From Pseudomonadales bacterium (GTDB lineage Bacteria; Patescibacteriota; Microgenomatia; UBA1400; PJMF01), in NCBI GenBank assembly GCA_020632235.1, contig JACKFY010000001.1:159334-223333 (forward strand): DNA of 64,000 nt, in the 5' to 3' direction. A program made the position numbers and the translations under genes. Below, piece after piece: positions 6,043 to 13,013 of the stretch (positions are counted from its first letter, which is position 1; each line of letters starts with the position of its first letter). The notes under the pieces are model-generated. The model was given only the letters and a program-made list of their open reading frames with translations. It did no database searches and had not been told where the DNA came from.

Positions 6043-6935
6043 TCTCCTAACTCCTTTCTCTTCTGCGGTACCAATTCCTCACCAGTCCCTATCATATCGG
6101 TGACATCACCGGCATGATCGCTGCCCTTGCCCAAGTAGTTACTCCCAGTTACTACTTTTCTTCCTGTCTCTTGTTCTAATTTCTTTCTGGCATCACCAGC
6201 AATATTACCGCCACGCTTGGCTACATGTTTGTTTTGGGTAAATCCTTGAGGGTGTTCTGATTTAGTAATCTCGGTGGTCGATGCTTCACCAAGCATGGAG
6301 AACAATAATTCTAAATCGCTCATGTGATCGCGCAGATTTTCTCGTTTGAGTCCTTTTACTTTCTTATGGGCAGAAGGAGTAATACCAAAGGCAGCCTTTG
6401 ATATTTCTGCCGTCAAGATCGCATATTCTTTCGATTCTTCAATACCATGCTTTTGCCATTCATCTGTGAGTTCTTCACGAATTGCGATCGAACGCATTCT
6501 TCTTTCGATCCATTCATCAGGATAGCCTTTTGCTTTGTATAAAGCTCTAGCTCTTTTTTGGGCAAGCTCGGGATCTTCAATTTCCTGAATTCGCTCATAG
6601 CCTACTTTTGCCAACCAACGTTTGAAGGGTTCTGCTTTGGGTGAAGGAACCGATTGAATAATACGAAAAATCCCCTCAGTATTGGCGCAGTTTACCTTTT
6701 GCTTACCTCCGGCTGTTTGTATCAAAAGGGGGGTGACAATTTGTCCATACCCTTTTGCCAACTCCTCATCACGCTTTCTCATTTTGCTGAGATAGTCTTT
6801 GGGATTGACGCTATCAGTTAGAGCCACAATGACATCTTCGACTACAAACCACCATTCATTTTTATGGATGGTTTTGCGGATCTCTTTTTTTCTAAAAATA
6901 GCAATTTTAGTCAATTCACTGATTTGTTTATTCAT
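6039..6935 (-). CDS. Bro-N/ORF6N-like (antirepressor/RhuM-like) DNA-binding domain protein
   Basis: The N-terminal segment EWWFVVEDVIVALTD...NPKDY...KRWLAKVGYERIQE matches the Bro-N-type fold found in phage antirepressors. The gene lies between hsdM and hsdS, a position where RhuM/Bro-like genes are known to occur. Confidence 0.5.
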   Translation of the reverse strand: MNKQISELTKIAIFRKKEIRKTIHKNEWWFVVEDVIVALTDSVNPKDYLSKMRKRDEELAKGYGQIVTPLLIQTAGGKQKVNCANTEGIFRIIQSVPSPKAEPFKRWLAKVGYERIQEIEDPELAQKRARALYKAKGYPDEWIERRMRSIAIREELTDEWQKHGIEESKEYAILTAEISKAAFGITPSAHKKVKGLKRENLRDHMSDLELLFSMLGEASTTEITKSEHPQGFTQNKHVAKRGGNIAGDARKKLEQETGRKVVTGSNYLGKGSDHAGDVTDMIGTGEELVPQKRKELGE

Positions 6936-8619
6936 AGCCTAGCTCCTTAATAAAACCTGTAACCTTTTTATCGATTTCGTCTCTTTCGGTTTCCAGCTGC
7001 TTAATTTCACCCCAAACCTGCTTAACATCAATCACTTCCTGCTCATCACTGGAATCGATGTAACGCCTGATGTTGAGATTAAAATCATTTTCTTCGAGTT
7101 CATCAGTATCAACCACGCGAGCGTATTTCTCCACGTTCTCATACTTGTCATAAGACGAAACAATCTTATCTATATCCTTCTTCCTTAGGGTATTTTGGTT
7201 TTTGCCTTCCGCATAGTCACGCTCAGCATCAACAATCAGAACCCTGCCTTTTTTATGTTCAGGCTTGTTCCTATTAAAAATTAAAATAGCTGCCGGGATG
7301 CCGGTACCATAGAACAACTTAGAAGGCAGAGCGATAACCGCTTCCAGGAGATCATTCTTGATGATCTGCTCACGGATCCGACCCTCGCTGCCTCCCCGGA
7401 ATAAAACTCCGTGGGGAAGAACCACGCCCGCCCTACCGTTGGCATTCATAGATTTCAAGATGTGGAGCACGAAAGCGTAATCGGCGTTTTTCTTTGGTGG
7501 TTGATCGTAACCCTCAGTACGACCATACTTATCGCTTTTAAATAGCTCAAATTCCCAGTCTTTGATGGAGTAAGGGGGATTAGCCACTACGATATCGAAT
7601 GTCTGTAGGTTGCCCATATTGGTCAAGAACTGGGGGTTGGCCAGCGTGTCGCCTCTCCTGATATCGGCGCTATCCAATCCATGCAAGAACATGTTGATCT
7701 TGGCGATGGCAAAAGTGCTGATGTTGATTTCCTGGCCATAGAGATAAAGAGTTCTAGCAATTTGCTCACCTGATTTATCCTTGAGATAGTTGTAGGCTTC
7801 AAGCAGGAAACCGCCAGAACCTACTGTAGGGTCATAGATGTGATCTTTTTGGTGAGGTTTAACAATACCAATAATGATTCGCTCAACTTCTCGAGGGGTA
7901 TAAAACTCTCCGCCCTTCTTGCCAGCATCAGCGGCGAACTGCTTGATCAGGTACTCATAAGCATCGCCAAGCAAATCCGAGCTTATGTAATTGCTGCCAA
8001 AGTTGTATTGGGAAAAATGGTTAACCAACCTCTGGAGTGTCTCATTAGGGAAGCGGTCTTTGTTGGCAAAATCCAGATCATCAAAAATCTTGTCCAGCTT
8101 AGGACTATTAACATTAGTAATCTTGTCAAAAACATCATTAAGCTTCTGCCCAATGCCCTCTGAAGTTTCGGCGATCACCTGCCAACTGCAATCTTTAGGT
8201 ACTTGAAAACGGTGATTGTAATCAGCGGCGGCCAGAGTCTTGTCGCCGTACTCACCCATTACACTCTGGTACTCCTCGTCCCAAACATCGCTTATCCGTT
8301 TATAAAACAGTAGTCCAAAGATATATTTCTTATAGTCAGAGCTGTCGATTTTACCTCTTAAGATATCTGCCGACTTCCATAAGAATTGCTCAAGCTGAGC
8401 TAAAGTGAGTTTACTACTCATTTCCTCTGCCAAAAGCTGGATGTCTTGCTTACGATATTTGCGGTCCTGTCTCGGCCCAACTCTAAGAGGAGTGAGTTTG
8501 CCAGCTTTCTCCCAATTTCTCAGGGTATCACGGTGGATTTTGAATAAATCAGCTACTTCCCCGATGGTTAGAAGGTCTGGTGTATCTTCAATAACTTTTT
8601 GAGTGATGCTTTTGCTCAT
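6928..8619 (-). CDS. hsdM: Type I RM N6-adenine DNA methyltransferase HsdM with N-terminal MerR/excisionase-type HTH extension
   Basis: The HsdM N-domain (LEQFLWKSADILRGKID) is present, together with an AdoMet-binding region and the VANPPYSIKDW motif IV. The first ~60 aa (LTIGEVADLFKIHRDTLRNWEKAGKL) form a MerR/Xis-like HTH. Confidence 0.9.
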   Translation of the reverse strand: MSKSITQKVIEDTPDLLTIGEVADLFKIHRDTLRNWEKAGKLTPLRVGPRQDRKYRKQDIQLLAEEMSSKLTLAQLEQFLWKSADILRGKIDSSDYKKYIFGLLFYKRISDVWDEEYQSVMGEYGDKTLAAADYNHRFQVPKDCSWQVIAETSEGIGQKLNDVFDKITNVNSPKLDKIFDDLDFANKDRFPNETLQRLVNHFSQYNFGSNYISSDLLGDAYEYLIKQFAADAGKKGGEFYTPREVERIIIGIVKPHQKDHIYDPTVGSGGFLLEAYNYLKDKSGEQIARTLYLYGQEINISTFAIAKINMFLHGLDSADIRRGDTLANPQFLTNMGNLQTFDIVVANPPYSIKDWEFELFKSDKYGRTEGYDQPPKKNADYAFVLHILKSMNANGRAGVVLPHGVLFRGGSEGRIREQIIKNDLLEAVIALPSKLFYGTGIPAAILIFNRNKPEHKKGRVLIVDAERDYAEGKNQNTLRKKDIDKIVSSYDKYENVEKYARVVDTDELEENDFNLNIRRYIDSSDEQEVIDVKQVWGEIKQLETERDEIDKKVTGFIKELGYE

Positions 8620-10533: not shown

Positions 10534-11070
10534 TTGAAGCCAAACCAACAGCTCTTAAGAAGCTTTGTTCAACAAATGAAAATGAAGATGTCAAAACAAC
10601 AACCCACAGACAATCTGTACCTCCAAATCTGGAGAAACCCTATTTTCAAGAATCTTCTTTTGGCGCAAGTAACAGCCGACCAATGGCATACCTTTACTGC
10701 TCTGGCAGTCTTCATGAACAAAAAGGGCGAATGTTACCCGTCTCAGAATAAACTCCAGATACTTGGTTTAAATAGTGTGGCTAGCGTGAGTAGAAGAATT
10801 GCCTCTTTAGAGAAGGCACGTTTTGAAGGCGAACCTTTAATCAAAGTCTTTCGAGATAAAAAGATGAAACGTAAAGGCAAATTCCTCTTTGCCAGCAATG
10901 GCTATCAGCTTAATCAAAACATCATTACTATCTTCGCTCCGCATGACACCACCATCGCATATAGGCGACAACAAATGGAAGCACTCAAAGAACTTAAGGC
11001 TAAAACCTTGGATTCATTAAGCATGGCTGCGTCACGGAAAGACGATAAACAAACTAGAAGGAGTTTTTAA
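10534..11070 (+). CDS. helix-turn-helix protein resembling plasmid/phage replication-initiator HTH (HTH_36-like)
   Basis: The segment CYPSQNKLQILGLNSVASVSRRIASLEKARF is typical of Rep-like winged-helix/HTH proteins. An iteron-like array follows immediately downstream. Confidence 0.4.
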   Translation: MKPNQQLLRSFVQQMKMKMSKQQPTDNLYLQIWRNPIFKNLLLAQVTADQWHTFTALAVFMNKKGECYPSQNKLQILGLNSVASVSRRIASLEKARFEGEPLIKVFRDKKMKRKGKFLFASNGYQLNQNIITIFAPHDTTIAYRRQQMEALKELKAKTLDSLSMAASRKDDKQTRRSF

Positions 11071-11184
11071 CAAAAAATTTAACGAAAACGGCGCCGTTTA
11101 TGAAAGACAAATCAATAGTAAAATCAACAGAACAACTTATAAGGAAGCTTGGTCAATTCCCGGTCAGAAATTGGTCAACTTTTT

Positions 11185-11440
11185 TGGGTGGGCAGAAGGT
11201 GGGCAAAATGCGGGCGGATTTAGAGGATTTTCAGGCTAAACAGGGTGTACAAAAGGTGGACAGAAATAGGACGGAAATACTTCACCAACGCTTCACTGAA
11301 ACTTCACCGGATTTTAGAGCTCTTAGCCTGAAAACCCTTCGGCAGCGCTTCGGCGCAGCTTCGGTGGTTTTGGAGAAGATTAGCCAAGAAAAATGTCGGC
11401 AACGTAACGGCAAACTGTCGGTGGTTTCGAACACATTTCT
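11185..11440. repeat. iteron-like array of short direct repeats with about 11-bp periodicity
   Basis: GGTGGGCA x2 plus TGCGGGCG, GGTGTACA/GGTGGACA, CTTCACC x3, CTTCGGC x3 and TGTCGGC x2, each set spaced by about 11 nt. The track ORF 11100-11543 covering this region is probably not coding. Confidence 0.5.
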
Positions 11441-11539
11441 CCTGCTTCCGTGTATAGCCCAATATATGCGGAATGTCCTGATTCAATTTGATATTCCCTC
11501 GAGTTACCTATATGTTGTTGTGTTGAAAAAGCCAGTCTC

Positions 11540-12797
11540 ATGAAAAGCGTTATATTCTGCCGAGTCTCCAGCAAAGAACAGGAAGAAACGGGCTACTCGC
11601 TCCCGGCGCAGGAGAAGTTCCTCAGAGAATATGGTGATAAACAAGGCTTGGAAGTTAAAAAAGTCTTTGCTATTTCCGAGTCAGCAGCAGGCAAAAGCCA
11701 ACGCAAGGTCTTTGAGGAAATGATCACCTATGTTAGGAAACAGAATATCTGTGCCATCATTGTCGAAACCACCGACCGTTTGACCAGAAACTTCTCCGAC
11801 GTGCCAACTATCGACCAATGGATTACCGAAACGAAACCACCAGATTCACTTAGCCAAAGAAGCCTGTGTCCTGCACAACTCCTCCTGTTCCACGAATGGT
11901 TTATGGCGGGTTAAAGTTGCTACTGCCGAGTATTACGTCCGCCTCCTTTCCGAGAATGTGAAGAAGGGACAAAAGAAAAGCTGGCACAAGGCTGGCTACC
12001 GACCAGACCACCGCTTGGCTACAAACTGTCGGCGAAACCGGCCACAAAATCCACATTATTGATGAAGGCGCTTCTAGGCTGGTGATCAAAATGTTTGAAC
12101 TCTCTGCCTCCGGCGATTATTCCATCAAGAAACTGGCCAACACCATGTATAAGGAAGGCATGAGATCGCCTCAGGGAAATAAGCTGGCGGTCAGTCGAAC
12201 ACACTCCCTACTGCGCGATCCCTTCTATATGGGTAAGATTAGATGGAACGATGAGATTTATGAAGGCAAACAGGAACCATTAATCAGTAAAGAAGTATTC
12301 GATAAAGTTCAGAAGTTACTCAAAAGCAAAACCACACCCACTTATATGAAACACAGTTATTTATTCAAAGGTTTAATTCGCTGCGCTACCTGCAAAGGGC
12401 TGATCACCTGGGAGTTTCATAGTGGCCATCGTTACAGCCACTGCAACCACTACAACGAATGTGATCAGGAAACCCGCACGAGGCAGTTTCTAGAAGAATG
12501 GACAAGTTATACGACGACAAACTTGATGAAAAAATCACCCAGGAGTTTTATAACCGCAAGTTTAAGCAGTACTCAAAGGAAAAAGACGAGCTGACTGAAA
12601 CCATCAAGAGGCACTCCACCGCCAGCACCGGTTACCTGAATCTGGGCATCAACCTCTATGAACTCTCTCAGCGGGCCAAAGAAATCTACTTAACCGCCAA
12701 AAGAAGGAGATGCTAGACGAACAACGCGCACTTATAAGGCTGGTCTTTAAGAAACTCATCTTAGATGAAGGAAAACTCAGCTGGGAATACTCCTGAG
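11540..12797 (+). pseudogene. large serine recombinase (resolvase/integrase family) disrupted by frameshifts
   Basis: The resolvase catalytic N-domain (VIFCRVSSKEQ...) is in ORF 11540-11914. The SENVKKGQKK...GYRPD segment is readable only in another frame at 11915-12080. The recombinase-domain plus zinc-ribbon piece (CATCKG...HCNHYNEC) is in 12082-12594, and the coiled-coil tail is in 12498-12716, continuing in yet another frame to about 12797. Confidence 0.7.
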
Positions 12798-12941
12798 CCT
12801 TTAAGATCCTGTCTGAGGCAGTAAGTCAGACAAATTGTTCTAAAGTGGAAAATTTGGAGGGTTTGAAAAAGAAACTTTCGAACATCGAGAAAGAGCGATG
12901 TTTCGGGACAAAGGACTCTTTGTTGCCCTCTCATGCCATCT

Positions 12942-13013
12942 GGCCCCCGGGAGGATTCGAACCTCCAACCTACCGGTTAACAGCCGGGCGCTCTGCCATT
13001 GAGCTACAGGGGA
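12942..13013 (-). tRNA. tRNA-Asn (anticodon GTT), no encoded CCA, predicted 1:72 T-C mismatch
   Basis: The reverse complement reads TCCCCTG-TA-GCTC-AATGGCA-GAGC-G-CCCGG-CTGTTAA-CCGGT-AGGTT-GGAGG-TTCGAAT-CCTCC-CGGGGGC-C. This gives a cloverleaf with the GTT anticodon and a canonical T-loop, and the 3' end faces the recombinase pseudogene. Confidence 0.6.

What the first reader, a model, noticed from the sequence alone, without database searches (positions are those of the whole stretch)
11185..11440. 11-bp-periodic direct repeat clusters (candidate iterons/origin) masquerading as a 147-aa ORF
From the sequence: GGTGGGCAgaaGGTGGGCAaaaTGCGGGCG, GGTGTACAaaaGGTGGACA, CTTCACCaacgCTTCACTgaaaCTTCACC, CTTCGGCagcgCTTCGGCgcagCTTCGGT and TGTCGGCaacgtaacggcaaacTGTCGGT. 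Several families of 7-8-bp repeats recur at one helical turn spacing within about 250 nt. From established knowledge: such phased repeats are typical binding arrays for Rep initiators at theta or rolling-circle origins, or for partition proteins. The long ORF predicted over them (11100-11543) is probably an artefact.
Basis: seen in the sequence. Interest (0 to 1): 0.55.

Follow-up and report, generated by a model that had tools for sequence, protein, structure and literature searches.

The report
Phased repeat array inside a translated spacer
The 11-base repeats are real and conserved in about 30 related small mobile elements of Patescibacteria; the reading frame over them is kept open by selection although its amino-acid sequence is not, so this is a conserved DNA or RNA signal array lying in a translated spacer just upstream of a serine recombinase gene.

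Summary
Observation confirmed and extended. Window 11150-11426 holds six clusters, each three 11-nt units (7-mer plus 4 nt), with a 57-nt higher-order period. Lag-11 identity is 0.48 and lag-57 0.51; 0 of 2000 shuffles reach either.

The array lies in a ~3.1-kb integrative element: DUF5659, small ORF, HTH_36 protein, ORF X, large serine recombinase (LSR). I recovered 33 related loci.

ORF X shows no protein-level selection:
- dN/dS is 0.79, against 0.05 for the LSR and 0.10 for HTH_36.
- Variability has no period 3.
- AlphaFold2 gives pLDDT 37, and there is no Pfam, PHROG or NCBIfam match.

Its "synonymous" sites evolve several-fold slower than its neighbours'. Heptamer cores are the best-conserved positions.

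The ORF is nevertheless not an artefact. Frame 0 has no stop in 26 loci, where about 32 stop-creating substitutions were expected. All length variants are in frame. Its stop overlaps the LSR start (ATGA).

No RNA structure has covariation support and nothing matches Rfam.

Best reading, inferred: a nucleotide-level array of phased protein-binding sites (operator or iteron-like). It sits upstream of an invariant promoter-like 48-mer, in a frame kept open to deliver ribosomes to the recombinase gene. An origin function is neither shown nor excluded.

The parts
10582..11070 (+). HTH_36 DNA-binding protein gene (about 163 aa; the ORF may start at 10534). Candidate binder of the array and candidate initiator or regulator.
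   Evidence: Pfam HTH_36 E 6.5e-5, below the curated cut-off. phrog_12720 'DNA binding protein' E 4.8e-17. Normal coding signature, dN/dS 0.10, except the last ~45 codons.
11065..11099 (+). Nearly invariant AT-rich leader TTTTAACAAAAAATTTAACGAAAAC... between the HTH_36 stop and the ORF X ATG. Contains a 12-nt tandem repeat at 11066-11088. No Shine-Dalgarno sequence.
   Evidence: Invariant columns in the 23-sequence alignment A2. TRF period 12. Most AT-rich 50-nt bin of the element, 72%.
11100..11543 (+). ORF X (147 codons). The frame is kept open by selection but carries no amino-acid-level constraint; read here as a translated spacer.
11150..11182 (+). Cluster A: TGGTCAAttcc CGGTCAGaaat TGGTCAActtt
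11187..11219 (+). Cluster B: GGTGGGCagaa GGTGGGCaaaa TGCGGGCggat. It contains AGGTG Shine-Dalgarno-like motifs and an in-frame ATG at 11208.
11224..11239 (+). Arm 1 of the inverted repeat (tail of module B, AGGATTTTCAGGCTAA).
   Evidence: 16 nt, 94% complementary to 11323-11338. The core is kept in most loci, but without compensatory changes.
11244..11276 (+). Cluster C: GGTGTACaaaa GGTGGACagaa ATAGGACggaa
11280..11312 (+). Cluster D: CTTCACCaacg CTTCACTgaaa CTTCACCggat. This is the most conserved cluster; its heptamers are essentially invariant.
   Evidence: Also present next to the 48-mer in L029-type elements.
11323..11338 (+). Arm 2 of the inverted repeat (tail of module D, TTAGCCTGAAAACCCT).
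11337..11369 (+). Cluster E: CTTCGGCagcg CTTCGGCgcag CTTCGGTggtt. This module is present in only some loci.
11394..11426 (+). Cluster F: TGTCGGCaacg TAACGGCaaac TGTCGGTggtt
11446..11473 (+). 11-bp inverted repeat or hairpin TTCCGTGTATA-GCCCAA-TATATGCGGAA.
   Evidence: 92.7% of cells paired in 26 sequences, but covariation is not above the shuffle control.
11484..11531 (+). Nearly invariant 48-mer CAATTTGATATTCCCTCGAGTTACCTATATGTTGTTGTGTTGAAAAAG. It contains a sigma-70-like TTGATA-17-TATGTT at 11488-11516.
   Evidence: 0-5 mismatches in all 31 loci checked, including L029-L031 where it is intergenic. Promoter consensus match.
11540..11543 (+). ATGA overlap: the ORF X stop (TGA) overlaps the recombinase start (ATG).
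11540..12716 (+). Large serine recombinase gene, broken in this window into three frames (11540-11914, 12082-12594, 12498-12716). It is intact (528-557 aa) in related loci.
   Evidence: Pfam Resolvase, Recombinase and Zn_ribbon_recom. phrog_95 integrase E 4e-70..

Best explanation
Shown: the repeat region evolves as a conserved nucleic-acid element, not as a protein. At the same time its reading frame is kept open and ends on the start codon of the large serine recombinase (LSR).

Inferred mechanism:
- The six clusters are phased binding sites on double-stranded DNA. Each is three 7-mer + 4-nt units, one unit per helical turn.
- The binder would be an oligomerising DNA-binding protein of the element. 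The HTH_36 protein encoded directly upstream is the first candidate, and the recombinase itself is a second.
- The array sits upstream of an invariant promoter-like 48-mer. It would set recombinase expression, or more generally assemble a nucleoprotein complex, for which an iteron-type origin is one possibility.
- The genes of the element lack Shine-Dalgarno sequences and are packed head to tail. Ribosomes must therefore read through the array to terminate at ATGA and restart on the recombinase gene, and to avoid polarity.
- That need keeps frame 0 free of stops and forces all insertions and deletions into multiples of three. This in turn would explain why 11-nt units occur in threes (33 nt) and modules in 57 nt.
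For: Nucleotide-level, not protein-level, constraint:
- Divergence at codon positions 1/2/3 is 0.19/0.175/0.185 in ORF X, against 0.09/0.055/0.38 in the LSR and 0.125/0.098/0.34 in HTH_36.
- dN/dS is 0.79 with dS 0.26, against 0.053 with dS 1.23 for the LSR. The pN/pS ratio is 0.56-1.16 in every 15-codon block.
- Period-3 power of variability is 0.2 (p = 0.80), against 317 for the LSR and 48 for HTH_36.
- pLDDT is 36.9. No Pfam, PHROG or NCBIfam family matches.
- ORF X evolves 3-10 times slower than third positions of the adjacent HTH_36 gene in the same pairs of loci.
- Heptamer cores are the best-conserved positions: 0.92-0.96, against 0.76-0.86 for spacers.

Open frame:
- Frame 0 has no stop in 26 loci, while the other five frames have 3-15 each.
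- Column shuffles give a mean of 18.7 stops and a minimum of 11.
- 31.7 stop-creating substitutions were expected on a 917-substitution spanning tree and none was seen. Frames +1 and +2 show 62 and 74 stop gains or losses.
- The ATGA overlap is conserved.

DNA-array reading:
- The repeats have a 7+4 direct-repeat format with an 11-bp period.
- Three-unit runs occur 108 times, against 1.85 expected.
- A DNA-binding gene lies upstream. Its positional counterpart in L029-type elements matches replication-initiator PHROGs at E 2e-6.
- The 48-mer is invariant and contains TTGATA-17-TATGTT.
- One mixed cluster, TGTCGGC/CTTCACT/CTTCACC, is retained next to the 48-mer in elements that lack ORF X.
- No RNA structure has covariation support, and nothing matches Rfam even at E <= 1.

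Precedent from the literature:
- Binding sites of recombination directionality factors and regulators are direct repeats one helix turn apart (PMC7498355, abstract).
- SARP regulators bind heptameric direct repeats, and the retrieved papers mention 4-bp spacers (PMC5930380 title and PMC3367932, as listed).
Against: - No binding was tested, and no protein-DNA link is shown.
- The clusters use at least seven different heptamers, with only a weak common pattern (KTSRNCR). A single sequence-specific protein does not explain this easily.
- The same D and F heptamers occur with very different upstream DNA-binding genes. HTH_36 may therefore not be the binder.
- The promoter is only a consensus match.
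- The plus strand folds somewhat better than shuffles (z = -2.35), whereas the minus strand does not (z = 0.09). One-sided A-to-G changes in the B/D tails give G-U pairs only on the plus strand. Reduced synonymous diversity extends 30 codons into the recombinase gene. All of this fits an mRNA-level role as well.
- An origin lacks DnaA boxes and any sign of an episomal form.
Confidence: 0.4

Rival explanations
1. An mRNA-level device. The conserved heptamer arrays and tails act in the transcript, as linear protein- or ribosome-binding motifs or as weak local structure. They would meter how many ribosomes traverse ORF X and re-initiate at the ATGA on the recombinase gene. Because 11 = 2 mod 3, three units present each heptamer in all three frames and then restore the frame.
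For: - One mechanism would explain both the nucleotide constraint and the open frame.
- The plus-strand fold has z = -2.35, against 0.09 for the minus strand.
- U-A to U-G changes occur in the B/D tail pairing and in the 11446-11473 hairpin, which also shows A-U to G-C double changes at one pair in three sequences.
- Clusters B and C carry AGGUG Shine-Dalgarno-like motifs, and cluster D carries UCACC, which resembles the 16S 3' end (read from the sequence).
- The constraint reaches into the first 30 recombinase codons.
Against: - The RNAalifold covariation term is only -1.03.
- Hairpin covariation is not above shuffles, 154 of 500.
- The B/D tail helix has about 15 uncompensated disruptions and no double compensatory change.
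- The long-range 23-nt pairing 11124-11146 / 11504-11526 is broken in several lineages while the 3' arm never changes.
- There is no Rfam match.
- Direct repeats cannot pair with each other, and no complementary heptamers exist elsewhere in the element.
Confidence: 0.28
2. One reading: an iteron-type replication origin (or partition site) for the excised circle, fired by the HTH_36 protein.
For: - Phased direct repeats lie directly downstream of a DNA-binding gene.
- An invariant AT-rich stretch with a 12-nt tandem repeat lies at the upstream edge.
- In sister elements the corresponding position holds a gene matching replication-initiator PHROGs at E 2e-6.
- From my own knowledge, the origin of phage lambda likewise lies inside the translated O gene.
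Against: - There are seven heptamer families instead of one iteron consensus.
- There are no DnaA boxes.
- AT-richness is only moderate, at 72%.
- The heptamers are kept in elements with an unrelated Rep-like gene.
- All copies found are chromosomally integrated. None occurs in the plasmid, phage or viral-contig collections.
- There is no partition NTPase.
Confidence: 0.15
3. ORF X encodes a genuine, fast-evolving, disordered basic protein, for example an accessory factor of the recombinase. Its gene would have grown by in-frame tandem duplications, and the repeats would be a by-product.
For: - The ORF is open in every locus, with a conserved start and stop.
- 87 predicted homologues exist.
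- It occupies the position of a real 153-aa gene in L029-type elements.
- dN/dS is slightly below 1, at 0.79.
Against: - 'Synonymous' sites are several-fold slower than in both neighbouring genes, which a protein model does not explain.
- Variability has no period 3.
- The most conserved 'residues' are simply the heptamer cores and the 48-mer. The 48-mer stays invariant where it is non-coding.
- An 11-nt repeat cannot be selected at the protein level.
- pLDDT is 36.9.
Confidence: 0.07

Closest known systems
Binding-site arrays of recombination directionality factors and regulators (phage 186 Apl, P2 Cox, lambda Xis, ICE RdfS)
   Same: Direct repeats spaced one DNA helical turn apart are bound by an oligomerising small DNA-binding protein. 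They sit in an integrative element and are used both at promoters and for recombination control (PMC7498355 abstract; PMC11963761 abstract). Lambda Xis binding three adjacent sites is from my own knowledge.
   Different: - Those systems serve tyrosine integrases and use one repeat consensus.
- They lie at att sites or between switch promoters and are not translated.
- Here the recombinase is a large serine recombinase, and the array is internal, 1.3-1.7 kb from either end of the element.
- It has several heptamer families and lies within a maintained ORF.
- No winged-helix RDF was identified; the DUF5659 model is not one.
7-bp + 4-bp-spacer direct repeats of OmpR/PhoB-type and SARP activators
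   Same: The geometry is identical: heptamers with a 4-bp spacer and an 11-bp period, often three copies, placed just upstream of a promoter (PMC5930380 and PMC3367932 for SARP; Pho boxes from my own knowledge).
   Different: No OmpR-type domain is detected in the element. There are six clusters over 280 bp rather than one site overlapping the -35 box, and the array is inside an ORF.
Iteron origins lying inside a translated gene (phage lambda ori within gene O) and plasmid iteron origins
   Same: Phased direct repeats next to or within the gene region of a DNA-binding initiator, with an adjacent AT-rich stretch. The reading frame has to be preserved across the cis-acting site (my own knowledge).
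   Different: Lambda iterons share one ~19-bp consensus, and the surrounding ORF encodes a conserved protein. Here the units are 11 bp and belong to several families. The ORF shows no protein-level constraint anywhere, and replication is unshown.
Plasmid R1 parC centromere (two sets of 11-bp repeats around a promoter, bound by ParR)
   Same: 11-bp direct repeats in clusters adjoining a promoter (my own knowledge).
   Different: There is no ParM/ParA-type NTPase or ParR-like gene in the 3.1-kb element. The units are heterogeneous.

Membership tests
Conserved protein-coding gene | Purifying selection on amino acids (dN/dS well below 1; third codon positions most variable) | tested here: not met
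   dN/dS is 0.79, and codon-position divergence is 0.19/0.175/0.185. Period-3 power is 0.2 (p = 0.80). The neighbouring genes give dN/dS 0.05 and 0.10.
Conserved protein-coding gene | Open reading frame maintained across homologues | tested here: met
   No stop in 26 loci, with 31.7 stop-creating substitutions expected. Eleven length classes are all in frame.
Conserved protein-coding gene | Recognisable family or confident fold | tested here: not met
   No Pfam, PHROG or NCBIfam hit. AlphaFold2 mean pLDDT is 36.9.
Iteron-type replication origin | Several direct repeats of one consensus, phased with the helix | tested here: inconclusive
   Phasing at 11 bp is strong. However, at least seven heptamer families exist, with only a weak shared pattern.
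Iteron-type replication origin | Adjacent gene for the initiator that binds the repeats | tested here: inconclusive
   An HTH_36 / phrog_12720 'DNA binding protein' gene lies directly upstream. The Rep-like annotation applies only to the non-homologous counterpart in L029-type elements. Binding was not tested.
Iteron-type replication origin | AT-rich unwinding region and host-factor (DnaA) boxes nearby | tested here: inconclusive
   An invariant stretch of 64-72% AT lies at 11034-11133. No DnaA box occurs in or next to the array, allowing up to 1 mismatch.
Iteron-type replication origin | Supports autonomous, Rep-dependent replication | not testable with these tools
   All copies found are integrated. 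None occurs in plasmid, phage or viral-contig collections.
Structured cis-regulatory RNA or ncRNA | Match to a described RNA family | tested here: not met
   Rfam shows nothing in the region, either at gathering scores or at E <= 1 in the window, or at gathering scores in six related loci.
Structured cis-regulatory RNA or ncRNA | Helices supported by compensatory changes | tested here: not met
   The covariation term is -1.03. Hairpin 11446-11473 is 92.7% paired, but its covariation score is reached by 154 of 500 shuffles. The B/D tail helix has no double compensatory change.
RDF or regulator binding array (Apl / Cox / Xis type) | Direct repeats one helical turn apart | tested here: met
   11-bp period, all units in one orientation.
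RDF or regulator binding array (Apl / Cox / Xis type) | Located at the att site and/or at a controlled promoter | tested here: inconclusive
   The array is not at the ends of the element. It ends about 60 bp upstream of an invariant promoter-like 48-mer.
RDF or regulator binding array (Apl / Cox / Xis type) | Cognate small winged-helix protein encoded by the element | tested here: inconclusive
   The DUF5659 model (pLDDT 87) is not a winged helix. HTH_36 is a helix-turn-helix protein of unknown mode.
Plasmid partition centromere (parC / tubC type) | Adjacent partition NTPase and adaptor genes | tested here: not met
   The element encodes only DUF5659, a ~50-aa ORF, HTH_36, ORF X and the recombinase.

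The most novel reading that the evidence does not exclude
The region is a translation-coupled nucleic-acid gate of a kind not yet described. It would be a 'protein-less' ORF whose only coding requirement is to stay open. Its conserved 3 x 11-nt units present each heptamer to the ribosome in all three frames. Its out-of-frame stops in the module tails catch slipped ribosomes. The fraction of ribosomes reaching the ATGA junction would then set serine-recombinase synthesis, and so couple excision or integration to the translational state of the host.
Probability: 0.15. Interest if true: 0.8.

Novelty: new variant of a known kind. Interest (0 to 1): 0.5.

Why it matters
- It corrects an annotation. 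"Hypothetical protein" H6774_01100 and at least 86 database relatives are predicted proteins that do not evolve as proteins.
- It defines a compact (~3.1 kb), widespread serine-recombinase element of Patescibacteria that inserts at tRNA 3' ends.
- It gives a clear case of a reading frame maintained purely for being open, over a conserved cis-acting repeat array. Such cases are missed both by gene callers, which call a protein, and by RNA-family searches, which find nothing.
- If the array controls the recombinase, it is a handle on how a minimal mobile element regulates integration in organisms with no genetic tools. It also bears on the large serine recombinases used as genome-engineering enzymes.

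Tried and rejected
1. tRNA mimicry of cluster F plus its tail (TGTCGGTGGTTTCGAAC). The window tRNA-Asn T-arm is GGAGG-TTCGAAT-CCTCC, so there is no real match.
2. TTCAC motifs upstream of the DUF5659 gene as shared operators. They lie in host flank that only some loci share.
3. Heptamers pairing with complementary copies elsewhere in the element. No consistent partners exist.
4. Clusters A-C as inverted copies of D-F. Rejected, because module B shares the YGGWTTTWGAG junction in direct orientation.
5. The long-range stem 11124-11146 / 11504-11526, the B/D tail stem and the 11446-11473 hairpin as an RNA fold. They are conserved in part but lack covariation support.
6. Ongoing homogenisation of units within a module. 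Same-locus and cross-locus unit identities are nearly equal.
8. DnaA boxes. None found in or next to the array.
9. Copies in viral contigs, plasmids or phages. None found.
10. DNA or translated homology between ORF X and the genes that replace it in L029-type elements. Only the short heptamer cluster matches.
11. Literature on DUF5659, or on Patescibacteria serine-recombinase integrative elements. Nothing was found in the searchable library.
12. PDB sequence search and NCBIfam for HTH_36. Uninformative.
13. Low divergence of ORF X as an effect of recombination only. The elements are mosaic, but ORF X is also 3-10 times slower than third positions of the physically adjacent HTH_36 gene in the same pairs.

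Full report
**1. Observation**

Identity at lag 11 is 0.478 and at lag 57 is 0.513. First-order Markov shuffles give 0.256 +/- 0.03, and none of 2000 shuffles reaches either value. The nine highest lag-11 values among all 256-nt windows of the 64-kb window lie at this locus. TRF reports period-11 arrays.

The anatomy is more regular than first described.
- There are six clusters, A to F, starting at 11150, 11187, 11244, 11280, 11337 and 11394.
- Each cluster is three units of a 7-mer plus 4 nt.
- The third unit runs into GGWTTT and a ~24-nt tail, which gives 57-nt modules.
- The tails of modules B and D are a 16-nt, 94% inverted repeat.

**2. Context**

ORF X (11100-11543) has no Pfam, PHROG or NCBIfam match. 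Its neighbours are as follows.
- Upstream lie a DUF5659 gene, a small ORF and an HTH_36 / phrog_12720 'DNA binding protein' gene.
- Downstream, overlapping in ATGA, lies a large serine recombinase. It is broken into three frames in this window.
- A tRNA-Asn gene follows.

A protein search found 87 predicted homologues in Patescibacteria-type metagenome bins. Scans of the genome and metagenome collections, plus two contig look-ups, returned 33 loci.

In all of them the same ~3.1-kb unit recurs between unrelated host genes.
- Its left end lies about 90 nt upstream of the DUF5659 start.
- Its right end is ...CCCATCTGGCTC, usually fused to the 3' end of a tRNA gene. The recombinase ORF reads across that junction.

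This is therefore a small integrative element.

**3. Protein or nucleic acid?**

Every test for coding-type evolution fails for ORF X and succeeds for its neighbours.

| Measure | ORF X | LSR | HTH_36 |
|---|---|---|---|
| Divergence at codon positions 1/2/3 | 0.19/0.175/0.185 | 0.09/0.055/0.38 | 0.125/0.098/0.34 |
| dN/dS (NG86) | 0.79 (dN 0.22, dS 0.26) | 0.053 (dS 1.23) | 0.10 |
| Period-3 power of column variability | 0.2 (p = 0.80) | 317 | 48 |

- No 15-codon block of ORF X has pN/pS below 0.56.
- AlphaFold2 with the family alignment gives pLDDT 36.9.
- The elements are mosaics, so the recombinase is an imperfect clock. L020 and L021 share near-identical HTH_36 and ORF X but differ by 33% at recombinase third positions.
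- ORF X is nevertheless 3-10 times slower than third positions of the adjacent HTH_36 gene in the same pairs.
- Within the clusters the heptamer cores are the best-conserved positions, at 0.92-0.96, against 0.76-0.86 for the spacers.
- The 48-nt block 11484-11531 is essentially invariant in all 31 loci. That includes L029-L031, where ORF X is absent and the block is intergenic.

The constraint is on the nucleotides.

**4. The ORF is still not an artefact**

- Frame 0 has no stop in any of 26 loci. The other two forward frames have 5-15 stops each and the reverse frames 3-10.
- Shuffling alignment columns gives a mean of 18.7 stops and never fewer than 11.
- On a minimum spanning tree with 917 substitutions, 31.7 stop-creating changes were expected in frame 0 and none occurred. 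Frames +1 and +2 show 62 and 74 stop gains or losses.
- Eleven length classes (321-573 nt) all keep the frame between a conserved ATG and the conserved TGA that overlaps the recombinase ATG.
- The start is preceded by an invariant AT-rich leader without a Shine-Dalgarno sequence.

Translation through the region, or at least an open frame, is selected. The identity of the peptide is not.

**5. RNA structure**

- The plus strand folds slightly better than shuffles (z = -2.35). The minus strand does not (z = 0.09).
- RNAalifold on 23 sequences gives a covariation term of only -1.03.
- The B/D tail pairing has many one-sided U-A to U-G changes. It also has about 15 uncompensated disruptions and no double compensatory change.
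- The 11446-11473 hairpin is 92.7% paired, but 154 of 500 shuffles match its covariation score.
- Rfam gives nothing, even at E <= 1.

A defined RNA fold is therefore unsupported. Linear RNA motifs cannot be excluded.

**6. What the repeats look like**

- Aligned in one register, the units share only a weak pattern, KTSRNCR, ending in a pyrimidine-purine step.
- Heptamers are module-specific: TGGTCAA, GGTGGGC, GGTGKAC, CTTCACY, CTTCGGY and TGWCGGY. Other loci also carry CTKCRYC.
- They are conserved unit by unit across loci, without ongoing homogenisation. Same-locus and cross-locus unit identities are almost equal.
- Runs of three units occur 108 times, against 1.85 expected. Only nine four-unit runs occur and none is longer.
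- 3 x 11 = 33 and 57 are both multiples of three. The frame constraint may therefore itself explain why the units come in threes.
- L029-type elements replace HTH_36 + ORF X with two other genes. One is a 245-aa gene matching replication-initiator PHROGs (E 2e-6). The other is a 153-aa HTH gene.
- These elements still keep one mixed cluster, TGTCGGC-acac-CTTCACT-acca-CTTCACC, just upstream of the 48-mer.
- The 48-mer contains the only forward-strand sigma-70-like match in the element, TTGATA-17-TATGTT.

**7. Explanation**

The best-supported reading is a nucleotide-level array of phased binding sites embedded in a translated spacer. The 7+4, one-turn direct-repeat format is that of arrays bound by oligomerising DNA-binding proteins.
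- SARP activators bind heptameric direct repeats, and the retrieved papers mention 4-bp spacers (PMC5930380, PMC3367932).

The position of the array suggests control of recombinase expression or assembly of a nucleoprotein complex. It lies between a DNA-binding gene and an invariant promoter-like block in front of the recombinase. The open frame is explained by termination-reinitiation at ATGA and by avoidance of polarity, in an operon whose genes lack Shine-Dalgarno sequences. These steps are inferred, and no binding or expression was tested.

The main rival is an mRNA-level gate on ribosome flow. It would explain the open frame and the nucleotide constraint with one mechanism, but it lacks structural support.

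- A DNA-binding gene lies directly upstream.
- An AT-rich invariant edge adjoins the array.
- The positional counterpart of HTH_36 in sister elements is Rep-like.

It also has points against it.
- The heptamers are heterogeneous.
- There are no DnaA boxes.
- The heptamers persist with a different Rep-like gene.
- No episomal, plasmid, phage or viral-contig copies were found.

A genuine fast-evolving protein is unlikely, because 'synonymous' sites are strongly constrained and the periodicity is 11 nt.

**8. Dead ends**

**9. Verdict**

A cis-acting repeat array is likely. 'ORF is an artefact' is wrong in the sense that the frame is under selection. An origin function is unproven.
- Novelty: a new variant of a known kind, namely phased direct-repeat arrays inside a frame that must stay open. 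Its unusual features are several heptamer families, units in threes, and an ORF with no protein-level constraint.
- Interest is moderate (0.5).

Noticed in passing
window 11540-12716: The large serine recombinase gene of this copy is split over three reading frames (11540-11914, 12082-12594, 12498-12716). It is intact (528-557 aa) in most related loci, so this copy is probably immobile, or the assembly carries frameshift errors.
   Followed up: partly
window ~12930-13013; L002, L005, L022 and others, right ends: The element ends at ...CCCATCTGGCTC, usually fused to the CCA end of a tRNA gene (tRNA-Asn, 12942-13013, minus strand, in the window). The recombinase ORF reads across the junction, so its C-terminal tail depends on the insertion site (528 to 570 aa).
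   Followed up: partly
L029 5696-5924, L022 6080-6335, L026 2678-2916, L004 2248-2440 (minus strand): The tRNA genes next to the insertion site in four loci carry group I introns (Rfam RF00028, 56-108 bits).
   Followed up: yes
L020 vs L021; L029-L031: The elements are mosaics. L020 and L021 have near-identical HTH_36 and ORF X but 33% third-position divergence in the recombinase gene. L029-type elements swap HTH_36 + ORF X for a Rep-like 245-aa gene and a 153-aa HTH gene, while keeping DUF5659, the small ORF, the invariant 48-mer and the recombinase. The 48-mer sits at the exchange boundary.
   Followed up: partly
window ~10935-11070 and 11540-11630: The last ~45 codons of the HTH_36 gene lose the coding signature (third-position diversity 0.26-0.31, equal to positions 1+2). 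The first 30 recombinase codons have reduced third-position diversity (0.15-0.26, against 0.35-0.5 further on). The nucleotide-level constraint therefore spans about 700 nt, more than ORF X alone.
   Followed up: partly
[not shown]
   Followed up: partly
window 11208: An in-frame ATG inside cluster B is preceded at a 6-nt spacing by AAGGTGG. This is the only strong Shine-Dalgarno-like motif in the element, and it is conserved in most loci. An internal start for a shorter product is possible.
   Followed up: no
L003, L005, L007, L013, L019, L020 left flanks (about 100 nt before the element): Several insertion sites share a conserved host sequence (tttagccttgaaactctttattttaactagctgtagtgtaacaaaagtaaccctttcttaccagag...) directly left of the element. 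Its nature was not examined.
   Followed up: no
window 6928-8619 (minus strand): A type I restriction-modification methyltransferase (HsdM-like, 563 aa by its sequence motifs) lies upstream. It is host DNA and not part of the element, since it is absent from the other loci.
   Followed up: no
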